A DNA stretch of 64,000 nt from Rhizophagus irregularis (lineage: Eukaryota). Location of the stretch: positions 868,001-932,000 of the forward strand of contig NC_089434.1 in assembly GCF_026210795.1 (NCBI RefSeq). The letters are read 5' to 3'. The translations under genes and the position numbers were made by a program. Shown piece by piece: positions 2,164 to 31,358 of this stretch. The notes under the pieces are model-generated. The model was not told the origin of the DNA, made no database searches, and saw only the letters and a list, made by a program, of their open reading frames with translations. Position 1 is the first letter of the stretch; every line of letters starts with the position of its first letter.

Positions 2164-2936
2164 ATGTCATTATCAAAAAAAAGAAAAGAATTACATCGAG
2201 ATCAATCAAATACTCAAACACACTGGAAACCCTTAGAACTTATTGGCGTCCTAACATTTCTAAATGAAAATTTTGATTTATGGAGTGTAAATCATCTTGA
2301 TGCTAGTAATAAGGCAATTAAGGAGACTAATATCAATCGTGATGGTAAAGCACTTTATAGTAAAATTTATAATATGGTTAAAGCTATGGAAGACTATGTT
2401 GAAAAAAATAATAAGTCAACTTCTTACACCATCATGTGGGAAAATAGTAAAATTTACGATTTAGTAAAAGAAATGTATGATAAAACCAAAGAAACAAAAG
2501 AAACCAAAGAAGGTGAAAGAAAAAAAGAAAAAAGAAACCTCAAATCATATGAGTGACGGTGATGGTGACGTCACAATGAAAAATAAGTATGATGACTTTG
2601 AAATTTCTAATTCTTTTTAAAATGCGATTAATTATCAAAGCAATGTTAAAATTTTATTTTTTTAATTTTAGTAATACGACGACTACAAATCAAATTGATG
2701 TTCCTCAATTACCTTTTACCATCGAAACGATTGACAAGGTTTACAATGAACAAGTTCAAAATTATGACCGATTGATAGTAATAAATAGAGATATGATTGA
2801 AAAGAGAAATAAAGAAGTTCGTGAATTGTACGAACAAATTTCTCGCCGCCAAGCTGAACTAATCAAATTAATTCAAAAAGCTAATAATAAATTAGATGAA
2901 TTGGGGAAAATTACTGGAAAATCTTACATGATATAG
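2164..2936 (+). pseudogene. Cluster paralog 1: Myb/SANT-like + coiled-coil protein with a +1 frameshift (pseudogene or homopolymer assembly error)
   Basis: Exon1 2164-2586, intron 2587-2671 (GTATGA..TTTAG), exon2 2672-2936. The spliced length of 688 nt is 3n+1. Removing one A from the A6 run at 2528-2533 restores KETSNHMSDGDGDVTMKN, homologous to paralog 2 KETPNCTSDGDDVVMN, and gives 228 aa. Confidence 0.75.
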
Positions 2937-4771
2937 ATTTATTTTTTTGTTTTCCTATATTTTATGTAAGCAAGATTTTAAAGTTTAACTTGTTTACGTG
3001 AATTTAAACAGAATTTAACTGAATAAATTTTTTAATTTTTAAGATGATTTTTATTTTTAAAAGTTTCTTTAATCGATCGCGTCTCATTTAAAAAAATTCC
3101 CACAGTATCGACGTTTTTGGTGACACGAATAACGTCATCTGCGTGGTGATCGAATGAATATCAGTTATAGAAATTATTTTCAGAGAATTTTGTTAAAGTT
3201 AAAATTAGATAAAATCACACATTTGCACTCTAATTATAAACTTGGCACGTGATATAGTCTAATATTAGATTCAGCTACATAAGTACCAATAAGAATCACG
3301 TAAAAAATCTGGTTTTGTCGTTACGAGGCTACACTATTTCGAAAATGGCGATAAACAAAATAAGCAATACTAAAAAGTTGAGTAACCGATATTATGTGAC
3401 GATTAACTTGTAAACTTCCAGAAATTATGATGATTGACACCCAACCTAGTAGAGTATCTGATGTTACAATATAAAGGTTCATTTTCTAATTTTCATAATT
3501 CTTTTTTTAATTTTTTATTTTTTTTTTCCTGGTAAACAAGGAGATAAACATATTTCATATTCCGAACATTAATACTAATTATATTTTTATGATACCATGT
3601 TTTGTGTATTTTAAGTATCTCTTTATCTATCAGTTTGTGTCACGAAAGATTTAGCTGGAAATCATCTGATTTTAATGTTCCACAAAATTATCAATTTCTT
3701 ATGATCAGCATTTTTGTGAAATTGATAATATTTTTCGTCATTGTTTTTTTTTAATAAGATGGTCCCCGCAGCAGGGATGCTGCGTCTTATTTTTTTTCAA
3801 AGAAGTTATGTAAGCTTAAAATTAAGCTGTATATATAAAATTATATTAATTGTTTTATGCAGAAGGGCTAATTAAAATGGATCAACGTATATGCTAAAAT
3901 CAGTCCAATCAGATGTAAATAATGTATCGCGCGCATACACTCAGATACAAATAAGGGATAGTAGATTAACAATACTAACAAACAAAATAAAATGTATGAT
4001 AAATTATTCAATGGATTCTCAATGGACCTTTCTCTCGATTCTTTTCTACAAGTACCTTGCTATTTATACATTTTTAGCCCTAATTGGTTAATGTTCAATA
4101 TACGATTATATTAAATAGCTATATTCGATATGTTTTTCGAAACATTGATCCGCAGTCACGTGACAAGCGGATTTTAGTCATCAATTTCGGCAATTGCATT
4201 ACCCGATAACATACCAGCAACACTATTTTGATTGATTGAACTTAAGATTACTTAATTGAATTATGAAATTTGTTTACAATACAAATATTGTGTATGATAC
4301 TATTATCTGTTTAAAAATTGAGTATACAGGCCTATCATTTTCTTAGGAAGGTTATTGGTAGGCAAAGAATTTTGTGTTTGATAACTTGAATAGGAGCCAT
4401 CTGCTAGAATTTTCGTGTTATTGAAAGTTTGTGTTCATATTTTAAGATGGTAACAACAATGAAAAAAATGTGCGCAAATAAAATACAGTTTAATGTAACA
4501 CAAAAAATAACAAACCACCAGCAATGAAATAAAAAAAAAATCAATATTTAGCTATTCTAATTATAGACCGTGGGACATGGGTATGAATGGCGGTAAATCC
4601 TTTAATAAAATATTTACGACTTGACAATACATTTTTTATTTACATTTCTTCGCCACCTAAAAAATTTTGTTGACATTTGATTATCAAGTTATAAAAAAAC
4701 AAATATTATTTACAAAAGATTATACCATATTACGATTGAAATAATAATAATGATATGCATAAAGCACTGTG

Positions 4772-4971
4772 GGGTAGTCTTACCACACCACCCTCGGTTA
4801 CACAAATATTTGTTGGGGTGTGATGTCCGAGGTATGTGACAAATAGAGATCAGGCTAGTAAAAAAAAACTAAGTCCCTCAGATAAATATAAAAAATGCGA
4901 ACGCGGATATCACGTGATAATGTGACGCTAAATGTCACTGTGTAACCGAGGGTGGTGTGGTAAGATTTTCC
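4772..4971. mobile_element. ~200-bp MITE with ~33-bp TIRs and an 8-9 bp TSD (Merlin- or MULE-like)
   Basis: TIR core TCTTACCACACCACCCTCGGTTACACA near 4778 with its reverse complement ending near 4965. Flanked by the direct repeat GCACTGTG(G) at 4764 and 4972. Confidence 0.85.
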
Positions 4972-4980
4972 GCACTGTGG

Positions 4981-5345
4981 TAGGACCCAGAAATATGTAT
5001 ATATATATATATAGGTAGGCGTTGATTTGCGTTTGTTAGATCATCAGATTGCATATTTTTTTATCAAAATTTTTGTATATCCAATTCGTGCAACACTAAA
5101 AAAAACGGTAAAGGACAATCAATACCTATTGTTCCGATTGGAAGAAATTTTCTAAGGTTTGAAAAGTATATTATATTTTAACTATCTTAACTATTTGAAA
5201 AATATTATTGAAAAAATGAAGACAAATTTTATTTTTTCATATTAGTATTTGGTTTTATAAATAATAAAAGCCAAGATAAAATAAATCATGTGAACTTTAT
5301 GTCTAAAATTGCAGGATTTTCAAAATCAGGTGTCAATTATGCGTA
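4981..5345 (+). mobile_element. Truncated copy of the TAGGACCCAG MITE family
   Basis: Starts TAGGACCCAGAAATAT. Internal blocks (TTGATTTGCG, TTTCTAAGG, GCAGGATTTTCAA.ATCAGGTGTCAATTATGCGTA) match the full copy at 21903-22396. No right TIR seen. Confidence 0.75.
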
Positions 5346-5839
5346 AAAAATTTTTTGTGTGATACAGGCAAGGGCTTTTAGCTGCATGATGAAAATATTA
5401 TTTCGTTTTGAGGCTATAAATACCTGTATGTATTGTACTGTATATGATTCTTTAAAATAATATTTTACGAGACGAATAATTAATAATTTGTGATAGCACT
5501 ATTATTAAAATTAAAGATACCCTAAGAATTGTTTCTAAATTTTTTTTTTTTATTTTAAACACTCATAATAGTATTAAATTATTGTTGTTCAACGTAGTCC
5601 GTGGTCTTCTATCAGGAAAAACAAACTCCTGAATCATATGTTTGGAGAAATCTATGTAACAAACATTTAACATTTTACAGGTTTTATTTGGTTAGTATCG
5701 AGGAATTCTCCTGTGGCGATTACTCGATTACGCATCGGCCCAGAACGTTTGTTTATTTGTTTATGGTACAATTAATATTTGAATTTATAAGGAAATTTCC
5801 AAGTTTAAAAAGATAGTTTTTTGTGTAAATTATTTTAAA

Positions 5840-6260
5840 GAATTCCCTTTTAATTTTCTTTAAAAAAAAAAGAAAGAAAGAAAGAAAAAGAAAAGGAAAA
5901 AGAAAAAGAAAAAGAAACATATTGAAGATTAAATAAAAAAAAATGTTTGTTCATGAATTCTCTTTTTGATTATTTGAAATTTTCTTAAAAAAAAAGAAAA
6001 AAAAGAAAAAGAAAATATTGAAGAAAAAAAATGTTTGTTCATAATCTAACAATGAATTCCCTTTTTAATTATTTGAAATTTTCTTTAAAAAAAAAAAGAA
6101 AAAGAAAATATTGAAGATTAAATAAAAAAAAAATGTTTGTTCATAATCTAATAATATTTTAGAATTCCCTTTTAATTATTTGAAATTTACTTAAAAAAAA
6201 AAAAAAGAAAAAGGAAAAAGGAAAAAAAGAAAAATAATTATAATTTATAATAATATTTTA
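5840..6260. repeat. Degenerate ~110-bp tandem repeat (3-4 copies)
   Basis: Recurrent GAATTCCCTTTTTAATTATTTGAAATTTTCTT(A)n..GAAAATATTGAAGA..AATGTTTGTTCATAATCTAA. Confidence 0.8.
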
Positions 6261-6651
6261 GTAATCTTATTAAAAGTAGGCTTGTAAATAGCTTATTGTA
6301 CTACGACTTTGTAAGAAGATCAGTTAAGCCACATCGCTTTGCAGTATGCAGAATTGTTTTGTAACTATTCAATCTATTCATTGAGTTTTCCAAAAAGAAA
6401 CTTTTTTTTTTTTAAAAAAAAAATAAAAAAATCTTAAGAAAATTTTTTTTCCCCCCGGAATAAAAAATTAAATAATCAAAGCGTCGCTGAGCGCTTTGGT
6501 CAGCGAATCTCGTATATAAATAGATAACGGAATTTGGGATCGTGTGGAGCCAGGTTCAATAAAATTGAACGCGGGTGTCAAATTTCTAAAATTAATGATA
6601 ATTATAATTAGTTATAGTACGATACATATATCAATAAATAAAAAAAAATAT

Positions 6652-7314
6652 TCACACTTGTCGTGAATCAGTGGTAACTGGGACATTGACATCCTTGATA
6701 AATACATCCCACTCCCCATTTCTATTTAAACGAAGTAATAAACAATATAAAATGTATAAAAATAAGAATTTCTTATTTTTAAAAATAAATAAATAAATAA
6801 AAATGAAAAATTATTATACTCACAAATTTGTATGACTTAAAGCTTTTTTATAAAGAAAAATACTCCACAAATTACGAATATCTCGTAAAATAAGGGATTT
6901 ATCGTCGTCTAGTAATCTTGAAGTATTTATTTTGTTATAAACAAAGTATGTTATTCCAATAAACGGATAAACATCTTTAAGATATGATATATTAGAATTT
7001 TTTAATAAGTAAGTTGTCCCAAGAACAAATTTCATAAACGTTGTTAACGACGGAAAATTATTATGAAAAATTTGTTGATAGATTTCGATGTTATTGGTTA
7101 GCGTAAGTAATTTTGGATCAATATCCCGACTAGTTACTGCATCAACAAATTTCCGAAAGTTAGGATCTTTTGGATTTAAGACGCTAGTTGTATCGATGTT
7201 TTTATGTCGACACCAATTCAAAATAGTTGGGTCCATATATTTGTTGAATAAATCGGCCAATATCCCTGAGACATTATCGATATTATCGTGGTAAATTGTT
7301 GAACGAGAATACAT
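6652..7314 (-). CDS. Hypothetical protein (186 aa, 2 exons), unrelated to the cluster family
   Basis: The 164-aa ORF ends at a GTGAGT donor (6823). Splicing to the AG at 6722 adds in-frame LNGEWDVFIKDVNVPVTTDSRQV*. Exons 7314-6824 and 6721-6652 total 561 nt. Confidence 0.6.
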
Positions 7315-9435
7315 TGTATTTTAAAAATCGGTATAAAAGAAACGAAAAAGTGAAAGAACGAAACTATCATAAATTAATAGAAAGGTTTTTAATCCATTTC
7401 ATAAATATTAACATATTTCAAGAACAGAAGCGATTTTTATATTTTTATTAAACGTCACGTGCAAAAGAAAACCGCAAAGAAGTGGAGTATTAAATATATA
7501 CATGATTCATATAATAAATATATACAAATGTAATTTAAAATTTAAAATTTAAAAAAAAAGTTGACAGATTAACGTTTTAGGGAAAAACATTATCAATTTA
7601 CGTAATACATCCTTTTTTAGTTTTTTTTTCAGCATGATCATTTAAATTATTCTGCGCTAAGGCTGGTACGGCTGGTGCATCCTTTTTGGGTTTTCATTTT
7701 GGAAGTCATCCCTCCCCTTGAAAATCTTCTGTGCTTTTTTCTTTTTCATCCAATAATCTGCCTTTTTTTTTATTTTTTTAATGAAGTAATCAGTTCTACA
7801 GATACTGTTTAAAATTGATCGTCATCATCTATAACACTAATTGTAAAATATATTTTTAAATAACATGTATTTTATATATACTTTTCTATTAAATGTATTA
7901 TATAACATCAAATTAAATAATGTAAAATCTCTTTACATAACATGTCTTTTGTGTTATGACTACTAGATGGGAAAAAACTTATCGGAAATCCGGATAATTA
8001 AAATACTAGATTTTCCACACTGAATTTCTACTGTTTCACAACATTTTATCTGCATGTTCTAGAGATCCATATGACAATATTTTTCATTCTGAAAAAAAAA
8101 AAAGATCCTAACGAAAAAGAGAAGGAAAAGAAAATGAAAACAATAGAATCGGATTTTGAACTCAAAACTTATTGTGTTTTGTAACATTTGGTGATTTTGG
8201 GATTTGTTTACGTATTTTAAATCAGCTGTATATTTTTTTAGATTATAAAAGGTTTTCATTAGTATTAATTGAGGTAACGCGTTAATTATAAAATGAGACA
8301 CGTTGAAACTATTTTTAATACACAGTATATTGACGATTATATTATTAAAAATTTTATTTGTATTTTTTCCTTTGCTGAGATGCCGAGATTAACCAATTTC
8401 TTTAATCATTGATTTAGAAGCACAAATGACTCATATTTTTTATTGAAATATCGGTACAAAATTTTACCCCGTATTTAAAAAAGGTAATTAGTGACTATAA
8501 GAAGTAAGTATATTAAAGCATTTTTTTACTTTTTTTTTACAAACTCCGATAACCTGATCATATATATAACTTTAAACTTTTTTTAATCATTAGTATAACG
8601 TTGTTTTAACCTTTTCTCATTGTAAAAAAATTATTCTTGGCACTCTAATGCATATTTGTGTATCGCAAAGAAAATATATAAAAAATAATAAATAAGTACA
8701 AATTCATGAATTTGGATTAGCAAGGACCTTTTTTTTTTTTGTTTTGTTAATAGACAAAGAAATCTGATTGTTGCCTCTTATATCTTTTCATTACGCCTCA
8801 ACAACAAAAAGGAAAACAAAAAAAAAGTATATCACGGATTCTAAGGATCGAATTTGGTATTACAATGAATTAGTTAAATACGCATATAAAGTAATTCATT
8901 TTTAATGAAATTATAATGAGATGAGAAATGATCTACAGATAGATAACACGTTATGTGTAATTTTAAAAACTTGTGTTTTTTTAACTGCATGTCGACGATT
9001 ATATCACACTATTATTATTAATAAAAATTTATTTGTATTCTTTACTTTTAGCTTTTATTTGATACTTTGGTACAGAACATAATAGATTATACATTTTTAG
9101 ATATCGCCGAGATTAACCAAATTTCTTTATAATCAATAGATTTTGAGGTACGGAGTTCCATGACCTTTGGCACAACTTTTTTTTATCTTGCAGCAAAGCT
9201 AACTATAAAAGGTAAGCAACCTTATATTTCATTTTTTCTAAATCTTGATCCTTAATGTCAAGTAGTCTCTGCGCCATCTTTAAATTTATTTATAAAAGAA
9301 AAAATTATTCGTGCTTTACGAAAACAAAAAAAAAACATTTTTAAAAAGAAAAATAAAAATTCAAAACATTCAAATAATTCAAATTTTGATATTATTTACT
9401 CCTTATATCAATTTTTTTTTTTAAAAAAAAAAAAG

Positions 9436-10188
9436 ATGTCAGTACCAAAAAAAAGAAAAGAGGTACATCGAGATCAACCAACTCAAATACAAATACGCTG
9501 GAAACCTTTAGAACTTCTTGGGGTCCTAACATTTCTTAATGATAATTTTGATTTATGGAGAGAAAATCATCAAAAAGCTTGCAGTGATGCGATTAAAGAG
9601 ACAAACATCAATCGTAATGAACAAGCAATTTATACTAAAATTAACAGTATGATTAAGGCTTTAGAAGAATATTTTGAGACGGGTAGAAAGTCGAATTCTT
9701 GCGCTGCCATGTGGGATGATGATAATAGTAAAATTTATGATTTGGTAAAAGAAATGTATGATAAAACCAAAGGAGGAGAAAAAAAGGAAAGTGAAAAGGA
9801 AACTCCAAATTGTACGAGTGACGGTGATGACGTTGTAATGAATAAGTATGTTGATCCTTTTGAAATCTCTAATTTTTTTTTTAAATTTATTAAAATTTTA
9901 TTATTCTATTTTAGTATAAATATGACGACTATCAATATAGATGTTCCTCAAATACCTTTTACCATTGACATGGTTGACAAGATCTACAACGAACAAATTC
10001 AAAATTATGACCGATTGGTAGAAATAAATAGAAATATAATTAAAAAGAAAAATAAGGAAGTTCGTGATTTGCATGAACAAATTACTCATCGTCAAACTGA
10101 ACTAATCGAGTTAATTCAAAAAGCTAATAATATATTAGATGAATTGAAGAAATTCACTGGAGAATCTTCAAAATCTCCTATGATGTGA
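9436..10188 (+). CDS. Cluster paralog 2: Myb/SANT-like + coiled-coil protein (227 aa)
   Basis: Exon1 9436-9845, intron 9846-9914 (GTATGT..TTTAG, 69 nt, read through in the ORF track), exon2 9915-10188. Motif RWKPLELLGVLTFLNDNFDLW..H..AC..A....NINR....Y.KI. Closest relative of paralog 1. Confidence 0.88.
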   Translation: MSVPKKRKEVHRDQPTQIQIRWKPLELLGVLTFLNDNFDLWRENHQKACSDAIKETNINRNEQAIYTKINSMIKALEEYFETGRKSNSCAAMWDDDNSKIYDLVKEMYDKTKGGEKKESEKETPNCTSDGDDVVMNKYVDPFEISNFFFKFIKILLFYFSINMTTINIDVPQIPFTIDMVDKIYNEQIQNYDRLVEINRNIIKKKNKEVRDLHEQITHRQTELIELIQKANNILDELKKFTGESSKSPMM

Positions 10189-12548: not shown

Positions 12549-13287
12549 ATGTCAAAACCAGTTCAACCAATACGATGGAAACCTTTAGAACTTATCGGCG
12601 TTCTGACTTATCTAAATAATAATTTTGAGCTGTGGTGTGCGAATCATCGTAATGCTTGCAATATGGCGATTAGGGAAACCAATATCAATCGAGACGAAAA
12701 AGCTACTTATGCTAAAATTTACAATTTGATTAGGGCAATGGAAGAATTTCATCAATCAGGTAGGAAGCCATCGTCTTATAATGTCATGTGGGAAGATAAA
12801 AATATCTACGATTTAGTAGAAAAGATGTACAACAAATCAAAAATGAAACAGGAAAGTGAAAAAGGTAAAGAAATTACAGTTGACGATGACATTGAGATGA
12901 GCATAAGGTATGTTAGCTTTAAATTATCAATTATATCAATTATATAACATTTAATAATTATTATATTATATTTTCATTTTTAGCGATGATCAAACAAATA
13001 TTGATATCATGTCGCAATCAATTGCGCCTTTATCAATTGAGGCAGTGAACAAACTTTGTGATGAGAAAATTAATCAAGTTTATGAAAATCAAGCCTTGGT
13101 TATCAAAAAGATTGAGGAAGCCAATGATACATTTGAAAAGTCAAATGTTAAAATTTTTTATTCGGCTGAGAGAGCTAAAAGTATATGCGACGAGAAATTG
13201 AGCAAAATCGGTCAACTTCGATCCGAACTTATCGAAATGATCAATATTGCTAATGCTAAATATGAAGAATTAAAAAACTTTCAATGA
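12549..13287 (+). CDS. Cluster paralog 3: Myb/SANT-like + coiled-coil protein (220 aa)
   Basis: Exon1 12549-12907, intron 12908-12983 (GTATGT..TTTAG), exon2 12984-13287. Spliced length is 663 nt, in frame. Confidence 0.88.
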
Positions 13288-14041
13288 TCGATTGGTAATT
13301 AATTCGTTTTTTTTTTTCGTAAATTTAAATTTTCAAAATTTGAATTCTTATTAATATTTTTATTTCTTTCGTTTAGTTTCAACATGAAGAAGTGTTTATG
13401 AATCTATTATTACTTAATTTTACTTAATACGTATTTCATATGTAATATATTATTTTTTTTTTGAAATTCGAAATTTAATTACCTTTACTCTATAGAACTT
13501 TAATAAAACGTTGTAGCGGTGTAGCCTATGTGCGATTTGCATATCTTCTTGTACGCCTTCAAGTTTTAATCCCCTTAAAAGAACACTGATATGTGTGCGA
13601 TTTGCGTATTTTCTTATACGCCTTCGAGTTTTAGTTTTAATCCCCTTAAAAAAGAACATTGATAAATTAGTTATATTTGATACACAAAATTGCACATCTT
13701 TGATGTAACAATATATCGATGTAACAATATTAGATTGGCATGTGAAATGTAAGGTAATTGAGAAAGAATTTCTTGTAAATAGAAATTTCTAATTGCCAAG
13801 CATAAATAAATAATGAATGTGCTGTACTACATCGCAACTGCTTTATTTTTTATATTATTATTGATGTTAAGATTAAAGTTATAAAATTATTGTGCAACTC
13901 GTTATCTATTGAATAAAATTTATAAAGATCTTCATATATCGCGTCTTTAGATATTTATGGTGGTTAAAATCTTTTGTTAAATAATACAAGTTGACATAAG
14001 CTTTGATGCAAGATGAATGTTCCCCATCACAAAATTATTTA

Positions 14042-14945
14042 ATAAATGCTTAAAAAAGATTTCAAAATAGCAGAATAGCTGATTTAATTCAGATGAAGCC
14101 ATGTGAAGAGCAAAGTTTTAAAGAATTTGTCTTTCATAATTTTTTGTTTATTTTTTCAGCCCTAACAAAATGAAATAATTTCCATTTAACGATTAGACGT
14201 TGATCGATAACGACACAAATTTCTTACAACAAAATAATTGGTTTCTCATGCTTAAAAAAGATTTCAAAATAGCAGAACAGCTGATTTAATTCAGATTAAG
14301 CCATGTGAATGAGAGTGAGAGAATTCCATAACTCTTTGTTTATTTTTTCAGCCCTAACAAATGAAATAATTTCCATTTAACGATTAGACAAAACAAGTCG
14401 ATTTATAACGATACGGCAAAATGATTGGTTCTCTATCATCAATAAATGATTAATAATAGTGAGAGACTTCCATAACTCTTTGTTTATTTTTCAGCCCTAA
14501 CAAAAATGAAATAATTTCCATTTAACGATTAGACGTTGATTCGATAACGACACGAATTTTTTTTATAACAAAATAATTGGTTCTCTATTACAATAAAAAA
14601 GATTTCAAAATAGCAGAACAGCTGATTTAATTCAGATCAAGCCATGTGAATAAGTGTGAGAGACTTCCATAACTCTTTGTTTATTTTTTTCAGCCTAACA
14701 AAATGAAATAATTTCCATTTAACGATTAAACGAAACAAGAGAAATAACGACACAAATTTTTTATGCAAAATGTTATTAAATAAATGCTTTAAAAAAAAAG
14801 ATTTCAAAATAGCAGAATAAGTTTAGATGAAGTCATATGAATATGGTAAAGAATTTGTCTTCCATGATTCTTTGTTTATTTATTTTAATTTTTTTTTTTC
14901 AGCCTAATAGAATAAAATAAAATTCATTTAATGACTAAACGAAAC
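14042..14945. repeat. Five-unit tandem repeat of ~150-205 bp
   Basis: Units start near 14042, 14248, 14441 (5' half deleted), 14592 and 14778. Shared GATTTCAAAATAGCAGAA.AGCTGATTTAATTCAGAT.AAGCCATGTGAA and CAGCCCTAACAAAATGAAATAATTTCCATTTAACGATTA. Confidence 0.9.
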
Positions 14946-15391: not shown

Positions 15392-15425
<34 letters not shown>

Positions 15426-15426
15426 T

Positions 15427-16158
15427 ATGCCACCAATTAGAAAATCAAAAGAAATATTTCGAGAACAAGTGCGTTGGAGTTCTAATGAACTTATTGGAAT
15501 TTTAGATTTTCTTGATAATAATTTTGAAATGTGGAGAACAAATCGAGTCAACGCTTCCACGAAAGCAATCGAAGCAACTAATAATAAACGGGATGCAAGA
15601 TCAGTTTATAATAAAATTCATGTATTAATTAAAAGTATGGAAGTATATCATAAAACTGGCGAAAAATCAAATACTGGTACCGTTATATGGAGTAATAAAA
15701 GAATTCAGGAATTGGTAGAAAATATTTATATTAAAACTAAAGAAAAAAGTGAAGAAAATCAAGAAATCGAAGTTGATGATAATAATAGGTATGATGATCT
15801 TCAGATATTATTAATTGTAATATATTATTTATAAATTATTTATTTCCTTAGCGATGCATCCACTATTCGAACTGAAATGGACGATGAACCAGCACCTTAT
15901 TCAACTGAGGCGATTAATAAACTTTATAGTGAGAAATTAATTCAACTTTCTCAAACTCGATCCACGGTTATGAAAACTATTGAAGAAACTAATAATACAT
16001 TTGAAGTATCAAAAGTTAATTTGTTACTTTACTCAAAAGAAGCGGCTATTGATATTTTTGACAAAAAAATTGAAGAAATTACTAAACTTCGAGATGAACT
16101 TTCCTATATTATTAATGATATTAACAATAAATATGAACAAATGAAAAACTTTCGGTGA
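15427..16158 (+). CDS. Cluster paralog 4: Myb/SANT-like + coiled-coil protein (222 aa)
   Basis: Exon1 15427-15788, intron 15789-15851 (GTATGA..CTTAG), exon2 15852-16158. Spliced length is 669 nt, in frame. Confidence 0.88.
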
Positions 16159-17197: not shown

Positions 17198-18035
17198 ATG
17201 CCTAAAGATACACCAATACGTTGGGAAAATGCAGAACTAATTAAAATCTTAAGTTACATTAATAACAATATTGATATGTGGTGTACAAACCATCTTAATG
17301 CTTGTCTCAAAGCAATAGAAGCTACCAACAATAATAAACGTGATGCAAAAGCAGTTTATAATAAAATTCATAGTTTGATTAAAGCTATGGACGAATTTCT
17401 TAAAACAGGGAAAAAGGCTCAAACTTGCAGCATTATTTGGGAGGAAACAAAAATTCATGATTTAGTAAGAAAAATTTATGTTAAAACCAAAGATAGAAAG
17501 AAGAAAGATGACAATAAAGAAAAAAAGAAAAAAGACGAAAATCTAGAACGAAGGTCAAAAGAAGGAAGTCAAGAATCTAAAACTCGTGATGATGATGGTG
17601 ATGTTGAAATGTCAAATAGGTATGTTGATGAATAACCTTAAATTAAGTGTCGTTAATTGAATATGTAATTACGATTATTTATTAACATTCATGATTTCTT
17701 TTTCTTTTCATTTAAGCTCTGATCAACTAACGCCCACTAATCGATCGACTGTAAATGGACCTGTCTCTCAGTTACCTTTTTCTCCTGATTTGATTGAAAA
17801 ACTTTATAATGAAAAATGTCAACAAATTGCTGAAACTCGGACTAGACTTACAAAAATAGCTGAAAGTGCCAAGAGTGAATTTGATATGGTTAACTTTCAG
17901 ATTCCTTTTCAACTTGATTCAGTTGAGACTAACTGTAACGATAAAGTACATCAAATTACTCTTCTTCGAACTGAACTTATCGAAATGATTGAGAAAGCTA
18001 ATAATAAATATAATGAATTAAAAGCATTTCAATAA
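17198..18035 (+). CDS. Cluster paralog 5: Myb/SANT-like + coiled-coil protein (246 aa)
   Basis: Exon1 17198-17619, intron 17620-17716 (GTATGT..TTAAG), exon2 17717-18035. Spliced length is 741 nt, in frame. Long K/R/D/E-rich linker. Confidence 0.88.
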
Positions 18036-19439: not shown

Positions 19440-22400
19440 CAGTCAAACCTCTATATACCGATTATACCGATACAGCTATTTTTGGAAAAAAATATCGGTA
19501 TATCAAATTATCGGTGCAATTGTACATTATGAAAATTTTATATACCGAACTGGGCAGGCATGATGGTAGCTAGTTCTTTTGAACGCTAAGTCTTAAGTCA
19601 CCAATTTTATTATTCGATCTTGTGTATAACTAGATTAGTCTATATGTTTTAATTTCAATGTAATAACTAAATTAGTCTATATAATTTTATTTCAATAAAT
19701 TCTTTTTGTTTTCCTTTGTTTTAAAAAAAGAAAATTTTATATACCGATATTTGTATAAAAATTATTACAGTATATTAATGTATTAGATGTGTATTAGTAT
19801 ATACAGTGACACAGTGTACAGTGTACAAAAACTATACTAAAGAGTTTGAAAAAAACTATCTAACGTAGTCTGCTTTGAGTTATTAATATGTGATTTCAAT
19901 ACTTGATGTCTTAACTTCTGCAATACATTTTGATTCATTTGAATTAATACAAACATCCGATGAATGTTTAAAAAATCATCCAAATAACCTAAAGCTTTTG
20001 TTACAGAAATTACTACTGGAGGCACTTCGTTTGGATCTACTTCTGGTTCATTATTATTATTTGACTTTACCATAGATACAAATGCATCATCAGTTAACCC
20101 TTCGTTACTTTTTAAACAATCATCAATACGAAGAAACTCATCTGCATCCATAGGATCATCAAATGGTAGTTTGCTAATTAAATCTTGTAATTCCATTTCA
20201 TCCCGAGATGCGTGATCCTTAATTTCATCAATTTCGCCTGTTTCACTTATTGGTAAGTTCCCTGTATGTTTTGACTTAAATATTCATGATTCTATTGATT
20301 TCAGCATAAATGCTTGGAATTCTTTAAGTTCTTGTGACATTTCATAGCTTCAATTCTATTTCTAACAAGTAATATCTAGTACCGTGCTTATATTAATGAA
20401 ATTTTATCATAAATTAAATTTTGATTTTGTAAAAAAAAAAACCTTTGCAAATTAACAATAAAAATACTAACCTTAAAAGAATTAATTATTCCTGCATCAC
20501 AAGGCTGTAGATGAGATGTAGTATTTGGCGGCAACCACATTGGTTAAATTTATTTCTTCATTTATAATATGTACGGGACTAACGGGTGCACTATCAACAA
20601 GCAAAAGGATATTGCGATTTTGTAATCGCATTTGCATATGCTCGTGGATTCTGGTATTTATGAATAAACAATGGCTTTAATTTTTCAGTACCAGTAGCAT
20701 TGTATGTAAAAAGCAGAGTAATCCGTTTTTTAGATTTCTTTGTTCCGGAAAGAAGCCCTTGCCAATGTTTTTGATGGTTCCCAACCCAAAGAAAGTAGTC
20801 GACCACGCTGGTGGAGGAAATTAAAAATTATGATGTTAAAACCCTTGTCTATTTTTTGCGTGGACAGAACATTCTTACTATGAAAATTATGAAAGCGAAT
20901 AAGATTCTTACCATCCCAATACAATCCTAAAATAAACAAAATTATAAATATAGAAAATAGAAGCCTTTTGAAAAAAAAAATTTACCAGTCAAAAACGTCA
21001 TTTAAGTCATAATCTTTGATTATTTCACGCAAAATATCTCTTTCTTCATCTAAAGTTTCCAATAGCGCGTTTTTTGCTTCACTCAACTTAATATATCCTT
21101 TTAAATTATGACGCTTTTTAAACTTATCGATCCAACTATTAGAAACTGAAAAATTATTGACTTCAAATTGTCGTGCAAAATATTTTCTTTTTCGCGTAAA
21201 ATATCGGTGTTAATACCCTGTAAAAAAAATTCTGGAAAAAACTCCGATAAATGATCGTTTTTCTGAAAAATTTTTTATAGGGACTGCAGCAAGCGCGTTC
21301 GTTATCCATAATGAAAGAGCTTCTTCTACTTGAGGAAAATAAATAGTTTGTTTACTTACATCTTCTGAGTCTGGATTACGAGTAACCACTTGCTGAAACA
21401 GTATTTTGTTTAATTTTATATAAAGCTACAAGTTCTGTCGTGAGAATCTAGACAGAGTTGACGTTTTTTGTGCATGTGTTAAAAATTACTCCTTTATTTG
21501 GTTTGGAAATATCTTGAACAGACTTCACGACGCGTTAAGCAAAAAAAAGTTAGTATTATATGCTGGTGTAACTTAGATTTATCGGTATATACTAAGTCAG
21601 AACTCGATGATTTTAGGTCGTTATACTGAGAGTTCGGTAAAACAAATATTCTTGTTACACCGAACTTAATATGTAAATTTTTTATAATTCGGTTTATCAA
21701 TTTTTTTTTTATAATAGACGCCTTATTTATTATATTATATTGGGTCATTATATTGAACTACAGATAAAGTAACACGTTTATTTGTATAATAAAAGAGTAA
21801 AAGAGTTAATAAAAGGGGCGAGATATTTAACTTACATCTGTTACATTACTCTCTTTGGTGAAGATCGAATAAAAAAAAAATTTTTTAAAACGATGATCGG
21901 TATAGGACCCAGAAATATATATACAAGGGGTAGGGTACACCATCATAGTGGAATTAGACGGAGTAAAGTTTTGATTTGCGTACAATTTTACTATAGTTAG
22001 GTCATCAAGATTGCGTATTTTTTATCAAATTTTTTATATGTAAAAAATTAGTTTGCGTATTTTTGACCTAAATTTGGCTAATCTTATATATTTACTGTAC
22101 GTACTTATTTAATTAACCGAATTGTAAGAAATTTCTAAGGGTTAAAAAGTGAAATTTTAGAAAAATATTATTAAAAAAATGGTAAATTCTATTTTTTCAC
22201 ATTAGTATTTATAATATAGAAGCCATGATAAAATAATTAATAACTTAATGTCTGAAATTTTATTTGCGTATTTTTGCAGGATTTTCAATATCAGGTGTCA
22301 ATTATGCGTACTACTCATATAAAAAGTCTCTGCGTACAGCTCATAGTAAAAAAATTTTTCGCCACCTGACCCCTATATATATATTTCTGGGTCCTATCGG

Positions 22401-22570: not shown

Positions 22571-22715
22571 GAATTTAAATTGCGAATTATAAATTTTATT
22601 TTATATATAAAAACAGTAATTTCAGTAATTTTTTTTACCGATGAGAATATATCCATAAAAAAAAAAAATTTCTAATGCTAATCTCAAGAATATCTACATC
22701 ACTCTATCCAATCAA

Positions 22716-23417
22716 TCACTGATATTGTTTTAGTTCTTCACATTTATTATTGATCTTATTATTGGCGTCCATAAGTGTTTCAATCATTTCGGATTGGATT
22801 TGGGAAATTTTTTCAATATCTTCTTTTCGTTTTGTTTCAATTCCTTGTATTCTTTCGTTACATAGAGTTTTAACCTCTTCAATTACTATAGGCATCTGAA
22901 AACTACCCATTTGATTCATTTGATTTGTAGATGTCTCACCTACTGTTGTTACTTGATTAGTTCTAAAATAAAATAAAATAAAATAAAATTAACAAAATAA
23001 ATTGTTTATTTTTTTTTTGTAAAAAAAAAAGTCACCGTACTCTATATTAACTTTAAAGTCACCACCACTTTTACGGTTTATTTTCTTTTCTTGACTTTCT
23101 TTTATTTGAGTTCTTTCTGTTCTTTCTCTAGTTTTGATACAAATTTTTCTTACTAATTTGCTTATTTTTTTGCTTTCTCTAAGAATATTACAAGTAGGTG
23201 ATCTATCCGCTTCAATAGAATTTTCCATATCTTTTATTAAAGTATGAACTTTACTATATATTGACGAAGCATCTCGATCGATATTTGTATTTTTAGACGC
23301 TGCAGTGCAAGCCTCCATATGGTTTTCAAACCATTTATTAAAATTATTATTAAGGAATTTAAGAACCTTAACTAGTTCCGTATAATCCCAGCGTTTCATT
23401 CTGTCAGCCCGAGGCAT
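22716..23417 (-). CDS. Cluster paralog 6 (inverted): Myb/SANT-like + coiled-coil protein (207 aa)
   Basis: ATG at 23417 (MPRADRMKRW) after a poly-A leader like the other paralogs. Exon1 23417-23041, intron 23040-22963 (GTACGG..TTTAG), exon2 22962-22716. Spliced length is 624 nt, in frame. Confidence 0.87.
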
Positions 23418-23469
23418 ATTTTTTTTTTTTTTTTCACGAAAAAATACGGTTACGAAAAAAATATGGGGA

Positions 23470-23500
<31 letters not shown>

Positions 23501-25136: not shown

Positions 25137-25964
25137 ATGACTGGAAAAAGCTGGAAGACCACAGAGATAATTAAAGTTCTCGAGTTTATTAATGAAAATT
25201 TTTCTTTATGGTGCAAACATCGGATAAATGCTTGTACTAAAGTGGCCAAAGTTCATAATCTTGATAGAGATGCTAAATCAATTTATAGTATGGTTAATAA
25301 GTTGCTTCAAGCTATTAAAACTCCTAAAAGACGTAAAGCTTGCAAAACTTTAAAGAGGAGAAAGATTAGTAGTTTAGTAAAAGAAATTAATAAAAAAACC
25401 GAAGTTTTGGACGAAGGATTAGACGACAAATGTAAAGGAAAAAAAAAAATTACGAGTGACAATAAACAAAAAATTACAACTAACAGTAACACTAATATGA
25501 CTACAAAGTATGGTAACTTTATAAGTTAAATATTTTAATTATCAAAATTATACGTTATCCATTATTTTTTTTAATTTTTTTTTTATTTTCTTTTTATTTT
25601 CTTTTTTAGCGCTAATCAAAAATCCGCAAGTCAAGCAGCAACAACATCCGCAAGTCAAATAGCAACAACATTCGCAAATCAAGCGGCAACAACATCCGCA
25701 AGTCAAGTAGCAGCAACATTCGTAAGTCAGGCAGCAACAACATCCGCAAGTCAAGCAGCGACAACATCCGCAAGTCAAGTACCAAATACATCTGCAAGTC
25801 AAGTACCAACAACATCCACAAGTCAAATAACGTCTGTAATTGAGGGTGTTTATAAAGAAAAGGTTAAACAAATTGATACTAGGCGTGATGAAGATATCCA
25901 GAATATTACTCAATATACAACTGATATTGTCAATAGTCTCCTGTTAAAGGGAATTCTTAAGTGA
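25137..25964 (+). CDS. Cluster paralog 7: Myb/SANT-like protein with S/T/A/Q octapeptide repeats and a short coiled coil (241 aa)
   Basis: Exon1 25137-25507, intron 25508-25609 (GTATGG..TTTAG), exon2 25610-25964 (no ATG-initiated ORF, so absent from the track). Spliced length is 726 nt, in frame, ending ...LLLKGILK*. Confidence 0.82.
25623..25830 (+). repeat. Coding 24-bp minisatellite (~8.5 units; SASQ[A/V/I][A/P]TT) in paralog 7 exon 2
   Basis: Repeats of TCCGCAAGTCAAGCAGCAACAACA and variants, in frame. Confidence 0.92.
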
Positions 25965-26817: not shown

Positions 26818-27444
26818 ATGCCTCGAGATAAACCGAAACGTTGGGAAACTCAAGATACAATTAAAGTCCTTAATTATCTCAATGATAATTTTGAACTTTG
26901 GTATAAAAGTCCTTTCGTTGCATGTGTTAAAGCAATAGAAGCAACTAATATAATTCGAGACGGAAAACAAGTTTATAATAAAGTTCATGGTTTGGTTCAG
27001 GATATGGAAAAATTTCTCGATACCGGCAAAAAAGCAAATAATTCTGCCGTTATTTGGGAAAATGAAGAAATTCATAGTTTGGTAAGAGCAATGTGTGTGA
27101 AATCCAGAGAAAAAAAGAGAAATGAAAATCAAGAAACTTCAAGTCGTATGAGTGACGGTGATGTTGAAATGAAGTACGTTGTTGATTCATTAAACATTTC
27201 ATTATAATTATTAAATTATTAACAAATATTTCTTTTTAGCATCGATCAAATAACGGTATCATCTGAGGAATCTACTAATCAAAATGACACAAATAGGAAC
27301 ATTCCTAAATTATCTTTTACTGTTGAAGAGGTTAATAATGTTTATAATGAAAAAATTAAGAAATTTGAAAAACTTCGAGCCGAACTTATCGAGTCTATTG
27401 AGATTGCCAATAAAAAATTTGATGATTTTAAAAAATTTCAATGA
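26818..27444 (+). CDS. Cluster paralog 8: Myb/SANT-like + single coiled-coil module (186 aa)
   Basis: Exon1 26818-27173, intron 27174-27239 (GTACGT..TTTAG), exon2 27240-27444 (absent from the ORF track; ...LSFTVEEVNNVYNEKIKKFEKLRAELIESIEIANKKFDDFKKFQ*). Spliced length is 561 nt, in frame. Confidence 0.88.
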
Positions 27445-28636
27445 TTTAATTGGAGCATAGTAAATGGTAAATCAAAAATTTTCTTCTTTTTCTTGAATTG
27501 GTTTTACTGTACCATTTGTACGTGATTTTTATTAATATCATATCTTTTTTTTTTCTTTCGATAAAGATTTCAAATATATATGCGACGTATCACGCATATC
27601 ATTTGTAAGTTTAATTATTATTTAGTTAAGGTTGGGCAAATTAAGGTGCCCAAAGAATTAAAAGAATTTTTAAGATATTTGTACCAATATTCTTTCCTGT
27701 ATAGTTTAATTGTTCGTTTGGATATTGACATTTGAAAATTCTTCGATTCTTTAGATTCTTAGCTTAAGAACGATACTCATTTAATTGTATCCCTAAAAAC
27801 ATTACATCCTACGTTTTGATTAATATTATTCTGTACAAAATTTTATATTAAATCAAGATTTTAATTAATAAAAAAATATGTGTATATTCAATTATTAAAT
27901 TTTAAATACAACCGATATAAAATTTCGCGTCAAAAAAAAATATTTCTCAGTTGCTGCGCTTGACGACGGATTATGGATAATTATAGGATAATTTTTCGGC
28001 GGTGGCGTTATCAATGCATGTCACGATTTTCATATTGGTTCTTTTTAAATAATAAATATGGGCATATCGATTCATTTGATTGTATTAATGAAATTATCAT
28101 AAATTTGATACAGTACATTTATTTCTATTTTATTATTGTTCTTTTCTATTCAATTCTATTCTGCCCGTATATTCTGCCGATTATTTTTTTTCACACACTA
28201 AATTTTTTTTGGTAACATAGATGATTGAGATGACTCACTTTTACTTGTATAATCTAAACAAATTGACAGTTGAAAACAAAATAATATCCTTATATGGGTA
28301 GAAGCCATCCATTTATTCAAATGAGTTTTAAACACAAGAACACCAATAAATATCAACAATTATTAATATAAACTTTTATCTGCATATCTTACAGAAAATA
28401 TGGTAATGATGACGCTGATTAACAGGAAATCATATTTCCACTTTTATATTAGATACTTTATTTTTAAAAAAAATTCAAAGAACGTCGTTAACTTCCTTTT
28501 ATAGCTTAATTCGTTAGATAACGATTTTATATCCGCTCATCTCATTTCACAGAAAAAAAAAACTTTTTTTTTTTTGCGTTCTTTTACATACATACAAAGA
28601 TACGATCGATTTATTTTTTTACTATTAAAAAAAAAG

Positions 28637-29332
28637 ATGCCTAGACCTGAGAAACCAAGACGATGGGAATCTTCAGAAATAGTGGTAGTTTTAAATTATC
28701 TTTATGATAATTTTGACACGTGGTATGATAGTCCTTATGTTGCTTGCGCTGAAGCAATAATGGCTACTAATGTTAAACGAGGAGGTAGTTCAGTTTATGG
28801 TAAAGTTCATAATATGATTAGAATTATGGATGATTACCTTCGGACGGGTAAAAAAAATTCGAATACTTGCGACATCTTATGGCAGAATAAAAAAGTTCGT
28901 GATTTGATAAAAGAAATGTGTTATAAAAATACAGAAAGAAAGAGAAAAGATGAAACTACGAAAAATCGTAAGAAGAGGTATGACATCATTATATCACATT
29001 TTATACTAACAGTATTACAAATTTATATTAACCATCAATTCTCTAGTATTAGTAAAGCGATAACAACTGTAACAACTGAAGCATCTACGACTACAAGTCA
29101 GATAGATGTTCCTCAGATGCCTTTTTCAATTGAAACGATTGATGAGATTTATAATGAACAAATTAAAAAAGTTGAAAATTTGGTATTAAAATCAAAAGAG
29201 ACTATTGAGACAAGAAATCAAGAAATTCGTGATTTATATGAACAAATTTCTCATCGTCGTTCTGAACTTATCGAATTAATTGAGATGGCTAATAATAAAT
29301 TGAATGATTTGAAGGATTTTTCTATAGTATAA
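28637..29332 (+). CDS. Cluster paralog 9: Myb/SANT-like + coiled-coil protein (208 aa)
   Basis: ATG 28637 (MPRPEKPRRW). Exon1 28637-28977, intron 28978-29046 (GTATGA..TCTAG, 69 nt, read through in the ORF track), exon2 29047-29332. Spliced length is 627 nt, in frame. Confidence 0.88.
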   Translation: MPRPEKPRRWESSEIVVVLNYLYDNFDTWYDSPYVACAEAIMATNVKRGGSSVYGKVHNMIRIMDDYLRTGKKNSNTCDILWQNKKVRDLIKEMCYKNTERKRKDETTKNRKKRYDIIISHFILTVLQIYINHQFSSISKAITTVTTEASTTTSQIDVPQMPFSIETIDEIYNEQIKKVENLVLKSKETIETRNQEIRDLYEQISHRRSELIELIEMANNKLNDLKDFSIV

Positions 29333-29387
29333 AAATTGGTATAAAAAATTGGTATAAAATTGGTATAAAATTGGTATAAAATTGGTA
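29328..29387. repeat. 11-12 bp tandem repeat (GTATAAAATTG) x5 overlapping the paralog 9 stop codon
   Basis: Directly visible. Confidence 0.85.
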
Positions 29388-29926
29388 ATAATCTCTTATC
29401 TTTAATTAGATTGATGTTTATTTTTGTAATATGATTTATTGATTAATTTACGTAATTTTTTTTTTTAAATAGAATAATAGGATTCTTTTTTTTCTTTCTT
29501 TTACATAATAAGAAATATGGGCTTAGCTTTTTGTATTATGTATATATTCTTTTTTACTTAAGCAAACATATGATTATTTATTATATAAGCGAAATTAAAT
29601 TGAGCACGATCGAAGAATTTTTATCATCATCAAATTCTTTTTTTTTATAGTTTCTTTTATAGTTTTATTTGAGGAATTTGGTATTTAAAATTGTAGTTTA
29701 TTTTAAGTTGTTAGTTAAATGAAAATTTTAAATAAAAAAGGGTTATTAAAATTTAACGATATTGATTTTTTGTATCATTAAATGTAACGTAAAAGTTTGT
29801 CGATCGACGATCATAAATTTGCCCATCTGCCAATCAAAATAAGAGGCGTTACTACCAGATTATGACGTATCAACTGGGTGAAATTAACAAAGTAACGTGA
29901 TTTTTAATGGTATTTTTTACAAAAAT

Positions 29927-30075
29927 GAGCATTGCTAAATCTCACCCGCAGGTGATCCTCACCAGCATTAGCAAATATTAATGGGCAGAGTTTCATAACA
30001 TTTTTAATTCCGCCCAAAATTCTACCCTAATTCTAGTAAGGTGACAATCGCCAGCGGTGATATTTAGCAATACTC
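29927..30075. mobile_element. 149-bp MITE-like inverted-repeat element with GAG...CTC termini
   Basis: GAGCATTGCTAAATCTCACC versus the reverse complement of the right end, GAGTATTGCTAAATATCACC (18/20). No clean TSD. Confidence 0.7.
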
Positions 30076-30589
30076 TTAAAAATAGATGTATGTTTTAAAT
30101 TCTAAACCCATATTGTATTAGTGTGATAATTAGACTAGCATAATTGATTTACCGAGTAAATTATTTCTTTATGCGCGTTTTCTTTTTTTTCTTTAATTTT
30201 AATTTCAGTAATTTCGGCCTAATCATGTAAGTTGTAACGTTATAAAAAAATCGATGACGAGTCTTAGTCGTTTTATCATTTCGAAATAAAATAAAAAAAA
30301 TGTTTTTTTTTTTCAGTTAAATTATTTTCTCACGATTTTTCTTTTTTTGTTTAATGAGTGAATTTTTTTTTCACGTACTAAATTTCTTTTGTATAATTCA
30401 TTAAAAATTATTATGATATAATTTGTTTTATTTGTTTATTCTTTTGATCTTCTTACTTTTTTACCGTTTCTACTTTTTTTTTTTATTTATATATAAATAT
30501 AAAAATCTTATTAAACCAAATTTCTTAGCTAAAAAAAAAAAAAAAAAAAAAAGTAAATCTCTTAAATTCTTTTATACTTAAAAAAAAAG

Positions 30590-31358
30590 ATGTCTCAATT
30601 GGGTGGGGGAAAACGATGGAATGCTTCAGAGTTGATCGAAATTTTAATTTACCTTAATAATAATTTTAGAGATTGGTATGAAAATTCTTATGGAACTTGT
30701 AATAAAGCGGTAGAAGCCACAAATAATTCTCGAGGTGCTAATTCAGTATATTGTAAAGTTCATAAGATGATTAGAGCGATGGATGATTATCTTACAACTG
30801 GTAAAAAACAAACTCGTGATATTATTTGGAAGGATCAATTGATTTACGATTTGATAAAAAGAATTCATAGAAAAACTAAAGAAAGAAAGGCAAGAGAAGA
30901 AAATGAAGAAGCTATAAAGAGAAGAAATTTAAGTTATCGCATTATTGAAGATGATACTGAAATGCAATTGGAAAATATAAAGTAAGGATAGTAAGGATGA
31001 TGTTTAAAATTACTAATTTTTTTTTCATTATTTTTATCAATTTATTTTTATGGTTTTTTTTTTTAGTAGTCAAATGACAGCTGGGACAGAATCCACTAGT
31101 CAATTGAAAATTGAAGTTCCACAACTACCTTTTTCAGTTGATACTATCGATAGCCTTCGTAGTGAACAAATTCTAAAAACCGAACGTCATGCTCGAGAAT
31201 TAGTAGCATTATCAAAAGAATCAATTGATGCTAGACATAAAGAAGTTCGTGAATTAACTGGAAAAATTTCACAACATCAAATTGAACTTGAGAAAATGAT
31301 TAAAGAAGCCAATGATAAGTTAGAAAAGTTGAAAGATGTTAATAGCTTTAATGACTGA
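30590..31358 (+). CDS. Cluster paralog 10: Myb/SANT-like + coiled-coil protein (227 aa)
   Basis: Exon1 30590-30981, intron 30982-31066 (GTAAGG..TTTAG, with a NAGNAG alternative acceptor 3 nt downstream), exon2 31067-31358. Spliced length is 684 nt, in frame. Confidence 0.88.

What the first reader, a model, noticed from the sequence alone, without database searches (positions are those of the whole stretch)
2164..31358. Tandem cluster of ten diverged Myb/SANT-like + coiled-coil genes: a candidate undescribed transcription-regulator family array
Seen: ten paralogs in 29 kb, nine on + and one inverted. All share RW...E.+.+L.[FY]+..N[FI]..W.....A...A....N..R....+Y.K+..++..M. Eight of the ten also have a downstream [IML]W...+..L+..+..K helix (W absent in 6 and 7). 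A K/R-rich stretch follows, then one phase-2 intron at the same place and a helical C-terminus mostly ending R.EL+E.I..AN.K..EL. Nine of ten splice to exact multiples of 3 with no stops despite deep divergence, which suggests purifying selection on each copy. No transposase, TIRs or signal peptide belong to these genes. Knowledge: Trp-anchored three-helix domain + basic NLS + coiled coil is the layout of trihelix/MADF/Myb-SANT-like regulators and of Harbinger-derived Myb-like proteins. Inference: this is a clustered family of nuclear DNA-binding regulators that may hetero-oligomerise. I do not recognise a described family for it.
Basis: partly seen in the sequence, partly recalled or inferred. 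Interest (0 to 1): 0.9.

Follow-up and report, generated by a model that had tools for sequence, protein, structure and literature searches.

The report
Conserved array of Sap1-like Myb genes
A mycorrhizal fungus carries ten neighbouring, old and conserved genes of an unnamed family whose predicted shape matches a known class of DNA-binding proteins (best match: fission-yeast Sap1), so they are likely an overlooked set of chromatin or gene regulators of these fungi.

Summary
Ten paralogs lie at 2164-31358 (nine +, one -), each with one phase-2 intron; six match Rhizophagus irregularis database proteins letter for letter. Copy 1's frameshift is most likely an assembly error: 4 of 4 runs laid lack it, and both polyA runs show the spliced form. 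The N-domain is under purifying selection (omega 0.21-0.39). No Pfam family reaches its cut-off. Two AlphaFold models give a four-helix Myb helix-turn-helix with a C-terminal extension helix. The top PDB match both times is the S. pombe Sap1 DNA-binding domain (Z 10.2 and 9.5, 12% identity), and plant telomere protein NgTRF1 is the next Myb-type match. Sap1 shares the layout of binding domain plus coiled coil. Basic residues on predicted helix 3 are conserved. Relatives with a species name are all Glomeromycota; accession order suggests the array is colinear in R. clarus and Glomus cerebriforme and extends upstream of the window. No Harbinger transposase was found nearby. DNA binding, nuclear location and oligomerisation are inferred, not shown. 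Verdict: a real, apparently undescribed lineage-restricted family with a known fold and layout; moderate interest.

The parts
2164..2936 (+). g1: exon 2164-2586, intron 2587-2671, exon 2672-2936; 229 aa in database versions; the window copy is frameshifted in A-runs at about 2519-2527, probably an assembly error
   Evidence: spliced joint 2586>2672 in 2 of 2 RNA runs; 4 of 4 runs differ from the window there
9436..10188 (+). g2: intron 9846-9914, 227 aa
12549..13287 (+). g3: intron 12908-12983, 220 aa (identical to P0002)
   Evidence: full-length model
15427..16158 (+). g4: intron 15789-15851, 222 aa
17198..18035 (+). g5: intron 17620-17716, 246 aa (identical to P0048, listed as GLOIN_2v1722824)
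   Evidence: N-domain model
19837..21425 (-). broken pogo/Tigger (Tc5 HTH + DDE_1) transposase remnant inserted in the array; not a family member
   Evidence: HTH_Tnp_Tc5 at 20985-21209, DDE_1 at 20597-20827, both above cut-off; outer limits approximate
22716..23417 (-). g6 (inverted): intron 23040-22963, 207 aa (identical to P0068)
25137..25964 (+). g7: intron 25508-25609, 241 aa (identical to P0091); the most divergent copy, with a 24-bp x 8.5 repeat (25622-25826) in the linker
26818..27444 (+). g8: intron 27174-27239, 186 aa (identical to P0084)
28637..29332 (+). g9: intron 28978-29046, 208 aa (identical to P0059)
30590..31358 (+). g10: intron 30982-31066, 227 aa
   Evidence: tblastn with P0062

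Best explanation
The ten genes are a selected, tandemly expanded family of small proteins whose N-terminal domain is predicted to fold as a four-helix Myb-plus-extension domain, and which likely bind double-stranded DNA as coiled-coil dimers in the way fission-yeast Sap1 does. Shown: gene structures, selection on the N-domain, splicing of copy 1, relatives in other Glomeraceae. Predicted: the fold, a disordered linker and long amphipathic C-terminal helices. Inferred: helix 3 enters the major groove, with conserved R48, K56 and K62 gripping the backbone; the basic arm before W9 contacts the minor groove; the C-terminal helix pairs two domains so that they read repeated sites. Variable exposed positions on helix 3 (50, 55, 58, 59) would give paralogs different preferences, making them sequence-specific chromatin or transcription regulators.
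For: N-domain model of g5 has pLDDT 85 with helices 11-23, 25-43, 50-70 and 84-106. Against 48,161 chains the top match is Sap1 6ext (Z 10.2, rmsd 3.5, 96 aligned), then NgTRF1 2qhb (Z 8.9, rmsd 3.4, 86 aligned); only these 2 reach Z 8, and most of the next rows are Myb/SANT/homeodomain folds. Foldseek ranks Sap1 entries 1-4 for both models. The full-length g3 model again ranks Sap1 first (Z 9.5, rmsd 3.7, 95 aligned). ESM Atlas structure neighbours are mostly Myb_DNA-bind_3/4/5 clusters at TM 0.61-0.76. Among 35 aligned members R48 is basic in 91%, K56 in 94% and K62 in 83%; the N-domain is net +4 to +12 in 8 of 10 copies. Sap1 has a four-helix Myb domain followed by a coiled coil that is needed for DNA binding (PMC6053445). 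Omega is 0.21 (GY) or 0.39 (MG) on 98 codons, with lnL -2479 against -2555 at omega = 1. Copy 1 is spliced in 2 of 2 polyA runs. The g5 gene is listed as differentially expressed in a published RNA-seq table (log2FC 1.02, adjusted P 0.0006; PMC12276329 supplement).
Against: No sequence-level link to any DNA-binding family: 0 of 20 exon pieces reach a Pfam cut-off, and the only Myb hit is g2 to Myb_DNA-bind_4 at E 0.28; no Myb family is among the 25 shown of 121 families hit by 35 members; the profile finds no relevant PDB sequence. Foldseek E-values for Sap1 are not significant (0.75, 0.21), identity is 12%, and the tool warns that Z under about 13 can be a common arrangement for helical domains; unrelated helical hairpins tie with Sap1 on the C-terminal part. 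ESM feature scores for named Myb clusters are under 0.9 (leads only). N-domains of g1 and g2 are net -1 and -2. A heptad signal beat shuffles at 15 or fewer of 300 in only 6 of 10 proteins (database relatives stood in for g1, g2, g4 and g10). Simple NG86 omega is higher (median 0.53 exon 1, 0.73 exon 2). R. clarus orthologues are only 57-76% identical in the N-region, fast for a core transcription factor (recalled expectation). None of the locus tags searched appears in a published proteome table (PMC8647823).
Confidence: 0.7

Rival explanations
1. They descend from the Myb-like DNA-binding partner (ORF2) of a PIF/Harbinger transposon, were domesticated and duplicated, and act as targeting adaptors for transposon control or chromatin complexes. 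This concerns origin and is partly compatible with the best explanation.
For: Atlas structure neighbours include NAIF1-like, zeste-like and Myb_DNA-bind_3/4/5 clusters. The helix-3 pattern R-x3-[S]-[VI]-x2-K-[IV]-x2-L resembles the trihelix/MADF/Harbinger pattern R-x3-Q-C-x2-K-W-x2-L (consensus recalled). Fast divergence between species would fit a role against transposons.
Against: No Harbinger transposase domain in 70 of the 120 stop-to-stop frames of 52 aa or more in 1-34000 (those outside the genes were chosen), and no inverted repeats shared by the copies' flanks (self-blastn). No Pfam membership. The solved GT-1 and Zeste domains match only about 64 residues (Z 5.1-5.2).
Confidence: 0.2
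2. They are true functional counterparts of Sap1 or plant TRF-like proteins: general regulatory factors that evict nucleosomes, block replication forks, guide retrotransposon insertion or bind telomeric repeats, rather than gene-specific transcription factors.
For: Sap1 and NgTRF1 are the only solved structures that match all four helices. Domain order and size are alike. Sap1's roles are described in PMC6053445 and PMC5368702.
Against: 12% identity and no sequence link; no bridging relatives outside Glomeromycota among named hits. Sap1 is described as one essential protein, whereas this is a diverging multi-copy array. The top rank may only reflect how few four-helix Myb structures are solved.
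Confidence: 0.12
3. The domain is a SANT-like protein-interaction module (histone tails or partner proteins), not a DNA reader; the proteins are scaffolds.
For: g1 and g2 N-domains are net neutral. The domain also occurs at the end of kinase-Sel1-MACPF-like proteins. SANT and SANT-SLIDE structures appear at Z about 5.
Against: The conserved surface residues on predicted helix 3 are basic, and 8 of 10 domains are net positive.
Confidence: 0.1
4. Decaying duplicates or chance ORFs.
For: The window copy of g1 is frameshifted; one soil-metagenome relative (L002) is frameshifted too.
Against: Omega well under 1; orthologues in other species; spliced transcripts; the g1 break is absent from 4 of 4 runs.
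Confidence: 0.02

Closest known systems
Schizosaccharomyces pombe Sap1 (switch-activating protein 1; PDB 6ext, 5b7j)
   Same: Predicted four-helix Myb HTH with a long fourth helix over about 96 residues; short basic arm before helix 1; C-terminal coiled-coil region.
   Different: 12% identity, no sequence-level link; here a linker of about 30 disordered residues separates helix 4 from the C-terminal helices; multi-copy array against one essential protein; no binding site known.
Plant TRF-like telomere proteins with Myb extension (NgTRF1, PDB 2qhb)
   Same: Four-helix Myb-plus-extension fold (Z 8.9, 86 aligned).
   Different: 10% identity; there the domain is C-terminal in a long protein (residues 574-659); no telomere link shown here.
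Myb/SANT-like families Myb_DNA-bind_3/4/5 and MADF (trihelix GT-1, Zeste, NAIF1/MSANTD, Harbinger ORF2)
   Same: Similar predicted fold (Atlas TM 0.61-0.76), Trp-x3-Glu start, helix-3 Arg/Lys pattern, N-terminal domain plus coiled coil.
   Different: Below every Pfam cut-off; the usual helix-3 Trp is Ile/Val and the helix-2 Trp appears to be Cys (comparison with recalled consensus); no transposase partner found nearby.
Tandem arrays of small Myb-like genes noted in ascomycetes by this scan (e1-7653711, e1-7566228; unchecked notes)
   Same: Old array of diverged, intron-containing Myb-like genes.
   Different: Those notes name PF22980, PF13921 and PF00249; none is among the matches.

Membership tests
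Sap1 | Four-helix Myb HTH plus extension helix | tested here: met
   Predicted models only: Z 10.2/rmsd 3.5/96 aligned and Z 9.5/rmsd 3.7/95 aligned
Sap1 | C-terminal coiled coil that dimerises | tested here: inconclusive
   Long helices 138-173 and 181-217 predicted; heptad signal in 6 of 10; pairing itself not established
Sap1 | Detectable sequence homology | tested here: not met
   Family profile against all PDB sequences, which hold Sap1 chains, gave 3 unrelated hits at E up to 10; 12% identity in the structural alignment
Sap1 | Binds repeated sites, blocks forks, essential | not testable with these tools
   Needs experiments
Pfam Myb_DNA-bind_3/4/5, MADF (trihelix/Harbinger-type) | HMM score above the curated cut-off | tested here: not met
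   Best 12.1 bits against 27 for PF13837 (g2); none among the 25 families shown for 35 members
Pfam Myb_DNA-bind_3/4/5, MADF (trihelix/Harbinger-type) | Myb/SANT-like fold | tested here: met
   Atlas TM 0.61-0.76 to such clusters, under the tool's bar for naming a family
PIF/Harbinger element | Adjacent DDE transposase gene and terminal inverted repeats | tested here: not met
   Only a pogo/Tigger remnant among 70 frames scanned; no shared inverted flanks; shorter or decayed remnants could be missed
Plant TRF-like / telobox proteins | Myb extension fold | tested here: met
   2qhb Z 8.9, rmsd 3.4, 86 aligned
Plant TRF-like / telobox proteins | Telobox sequence motif and telomeric DNA binding | not tested
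   10% identity; motif not compared; binding needs experiments
Canonical SANT (histone-binding) | Acidic surface, no basic recognition helix (recalled) | tested here: not met
   Conserved basic helix-3 residues and net positive charge in 8 of 10; no electrostatic surface was computed

The most novel reading that the evidence does not exclude
These are the first Sap1-type general regulatory factors outside fission yeasts, expanded in Glomeraceae into a colinear array of more than ten genes whose coiled coils mix to give a combinatorial code of dimers that mark nucleosome-free regions, replication barriers or transposon target sites in a transposon-rich, multinucleate genome; one copy has been captured at the end of a kinase-Sel1-MACPF-like protein as a sensor or targeting domain.
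Probability: 0.12. Interest if true: 0.8.

Novelty: new variant of a known kind. Interest (0 to 1): 0.5.

Why it matters
These genes are annotated as hypothetical and escape Pfam, so catalogues of mycorrhizal-fungus transcription factors built on Pfam would miss them. If they bind DNA, they add more than ten lineage-restricted regulators in one old, ordered array, each small enough to express and test by DAP-seq without transforming the fungus. A real link to Sap1 would give that protein relatives outside fission yeasts.

Tried and rejected
No whole genome is held for this window, so the upstream part of the array could not be read; synteny rests on accession order and contig lengths. The homodimer prediction for g3 gave no answer (score 0.00, alignment not used) and is not counted either way. 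The metagenome scan returned only 2 short loci (1.4 and 3.0 kb) from 336 pattern matches, too short for synteny or orthologue dN/dS. Pfam hits of the C-terminal exon (Prefoldin, DegS, HMMR_N and others) are all below cut-off and were rejected as generic coiled-coil matches, as were helical-hairpin matches and HTH_MCM7 (below cut-off, 27 residues). Database fusions of neighbours (P0001, P0062, P0090) and of g6 with the Tigger remnant (P0070) were taken as gene-model errors. Locus-tag searches found nothing in main texts or in the supplements held for PMC11035146 and PMC6920215. One requested Sap1 paper is not held, so DNA-contact residues could not be mapped. The sequence and place look-ups of earlier findings were empty.
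Full report
Observation. The window is AT-rich (GC 0.24-0.34) and from Rhizophagus irregularis: six of nine spliced models equal database proteins of that species residue for residue. A six-frame search finds exactly ten copies of the N-terminal domain, all within 2119-30982. Nine splice through one phase-2 GT-AG intron to clean ORFs of 186-246 aa. Paralogs are a median 40% identical in exon 1 (26-66%, 45 pairs). A relative on metagenome contig L001 has a phase-2 donor at the matching place.

Copy 1. The window copy is out of frame near the end of exon 1. All four runs laid on 1900-3400 (two polyA RNA runs of one study, two DNA runs) carry two more A's there. Both RNA runs join 2586 to 2672 across an 85-base GT..AG intron and have no depth inside it. 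Database versions from several assemblies are 229 aa. The break is therefore most likely an error in A-runs of the assembly; a strain-specific lesion is not excluded. Only this copy was laid with reads.

Selection and expression. On 98 codons of the N-domain, codon models give omega 0.21 (GY+F3X4) and 0.39 (MGK+F3X4), and fixing omega at 1 on the same tree lowers lnL from -2479 to -2555. Simple counting agrees in direction but is weaker: pN < pS in 43 of 45 pairs for exon 1 and 36 of 45 for exon 2, median omega 0.53 and 0.73. A 220-aa spliced-length relative of g3 is called on a 1,020-base Logan contig (P0046), which suggests a transcript. The gene identical to g5 is listed as up-regulated in one contrast (low phosphate, with against without the bacterium; log2FC 1.02, adjusted P 0.0006) in supplement 3 of PMC12276329; I saw only matching rows and headers, and the file was cut when stored. 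Against: the locus tags searched do not appear in the proteome table of PMC8647823 (supplement rows only; one file not searchable; tags partly inferred from neighbouring numbers).

Fold. Pfam gives nothing above cut-off for 20 of 20 exon pieces; the only Myb hit is E 0.28. AlphaFold2 on the ten-copy alignment gives a confident N-domain (pLDDT 85) with a three-helix core and a long fourth helix. Against 48,161 PDB representatives the best match is the Sap1 DNA-binding domain (Z 10.2, rmsd 3.5, 96 aligned, 12% identity), then NgTRF1 (Z 8.9, rmsd 3.4, 86 aligned); the third row is at Z 6.0. Foldseek ranks four Sap1 entries first, but with E 0.75-2.0. A second model, full-length g3, shows the same domain (pLDDT about 90), a disordered linker at 106-133 and helices 138-173 and 181-217; Sap1 is again first (Z 9.5; Foldseek E 0.21), with generic helical hairpins tied on the C-terminal part. 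ESM Atlas neighbours are mostly Myb/SANT-like clusters, as leads. PMC6053445 (parts 1-3 of 5 read: abstract, introduction, results, discussion, part of methods) describes Sap1 as a four-helix Myb domain whose fourth helix corresponds to the Myb extension of NgTRF1, with helix 3 modelled in the major groove, N-terminal residues in the minor groove, and DNA binding dependent on a C-terminal coiled coil. PMC5368702 (passages) adds its roles at fork barriers, in nucleosome eviction and in Tf1 targeting.

DNA-binding surface. In 35 aligned members the conserved non-core residues sit on predicted helix 3: position 48 basic in 91%, 51 in 66%, 56 in 94%, 62 in 83%, and S52 in 25 of 35; position 8 in the N-terminal arm is basic in 65%. 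Positions 50, 55, 58 and 59 vary. The N-domain is net positive in 8 of 10 copies. This is what a recognition helix would look like; it is an inference, and no surface or complex was computed. A simple heptad score on the last 90 residues beat shuffles at 15 or fewer of 300 in 6 of 10 proteins.

Range and age. A profile search of 1.84 billion representatives found 58 at E up to 0.001. I looked up 20 of them: 15 carry a species name, all Glomeromycota (R. irregularis, R. clarus, Glomus cerebriforme, Funneliformis geosporum, and one distant Acaulospora morrowiae hit at E 3e-8), and 5 have none. The three word-based searches add R. diaphanus and no other named lineage. In a tree of 69 domains (101 columns, 25 of 66 branches open) g6, g7, g9 and g10 each group with an R. 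clarus protein with starred support, and G. cerebriforme members fall with different subgroups. So the duplications predate these splits. Accession order on contigs of equal length suggests colinearity: R. clarus GES79983, 79989, 79994, 80001 (g6-like), 80004 (g10-like); G. cerebriforme RIA89518 (g9-like, 92/89), 89520 (g6/g7 group), 89523, 89527, 89528, with the founder-like RIA81382 close to duplicates of the last two. In R. irregularis two more members carry numbers upstream of g1 (OCT59_025943 against 025954; CAB4478839 against 4478846), so the array runs past the window's start. This order is inferred; I did not see the DNA. The founder-like subfamily also holds the Funneliformis protein.

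Surroundings. No Harbinger transposase domain was found in 70 non-gene frames scanned (of 120 listed); the only hits above cut-off are a pogo/Tigger remnant between g5 and g6, and a published table lists a CENP-B-like gene overlapping DNA/TcMar repeats under an accession between those of g5 and g6 (PMC8647823). Self-blastn shows no inverted repeats shared by the copies. Elsewhere in the genome the domain ends kinase-Sel1-MACPF-like proteins in both R. irregularis and R. clarus.

Comparison with what is known. It works like Sap1 or a trihelix/MSANTD-type protein in layout and predicted fold, but it is not a member of either by sequence. Searches of the paper library (listings only) and passages of PMC10234402 and PMC8778642 (no occurrence of 'Myb' in either main text) found no description of the family or array. 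Most subscription papers, bioRxiv supplements and several scanned supplements were not visible, so this is limited. Unchecked notes from this scan report similar arrays of other small Myb-like families in ascomycetes, so the array as a kind may not be unique.

Verdict. Real, selected, old and apparently undescribed; known fold and layout; function inferred. New variant of a known kind; interest 0.5.

Noticed in passing
P0012, P0013, P0110, P0126 (outside the window): The family domain plus its helical tail ends long kinase-Sel1-MACPF-like proteins in R. irregularis and R. clarus (Pfam PK_Tyr_Ser-Thr, Sel1; MACPF_1 above cut-off only in P0126). A shared motif precedes the domain in both species. 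One annotation (P0011) calls the domain as a separate gene, so the fusion needs long-read proof.
   Followed up: partly
window 19837-21425 (-): Broken pogo/Tigger transposase inside the array, next to the inverted copy g6.
   Followed up: yes
window 21900-22395, 4981-5400, 33415-33770: Related non-coding repeat (74-78% alike); the copy at 21900-22395 has inverted ends by eye and looks like a MITE.
   Followed up: partly
window 4761-4975: Short element whose two ends look like inverted repeats by eye.
   Followed up: no
window 43231-47754 (+): Intact-looking 1,507-aa frame with reverse transcriptase and RNase H domains, LINE-like.
   Followed up: partly
window 41139-42648 (-): Tyrosine-kinase-like protein kinase gene of the type expanded in these fungi.
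   Followed up: partly
window 48067-51971 (+) and 37692-39034 (-): Several long frames without Pfam match, some Cys/His-rich; likely DNA-transposon genes or remnants (impression only).
   Followed up: partly
window 14030-14945 and 5887-6261: Imperfect tandem duplications of about 200 bp and 100 bp units in the spacers.
   Followed up: no
window 6820-7320 (-): 166-aa frame between g1 and g2 with no Pfam match.
   Followed up: partly
L002:1373-2090: Soil-metagenome relative with a frameshift early in exon 1; pseudogene or assembly error.
   Followed up: partly
PMC12276329 supplement 3: Two locus tags numerically near the array (GLOIN_2v1722856 and 1722750) are up-regulated in the same contrast as g5; whether they are family members was not checked.
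   Followed up: no
window 63265-63999 (+): Start of a multi-pass membrane protein gene running off the window's end.
   Followed up: no
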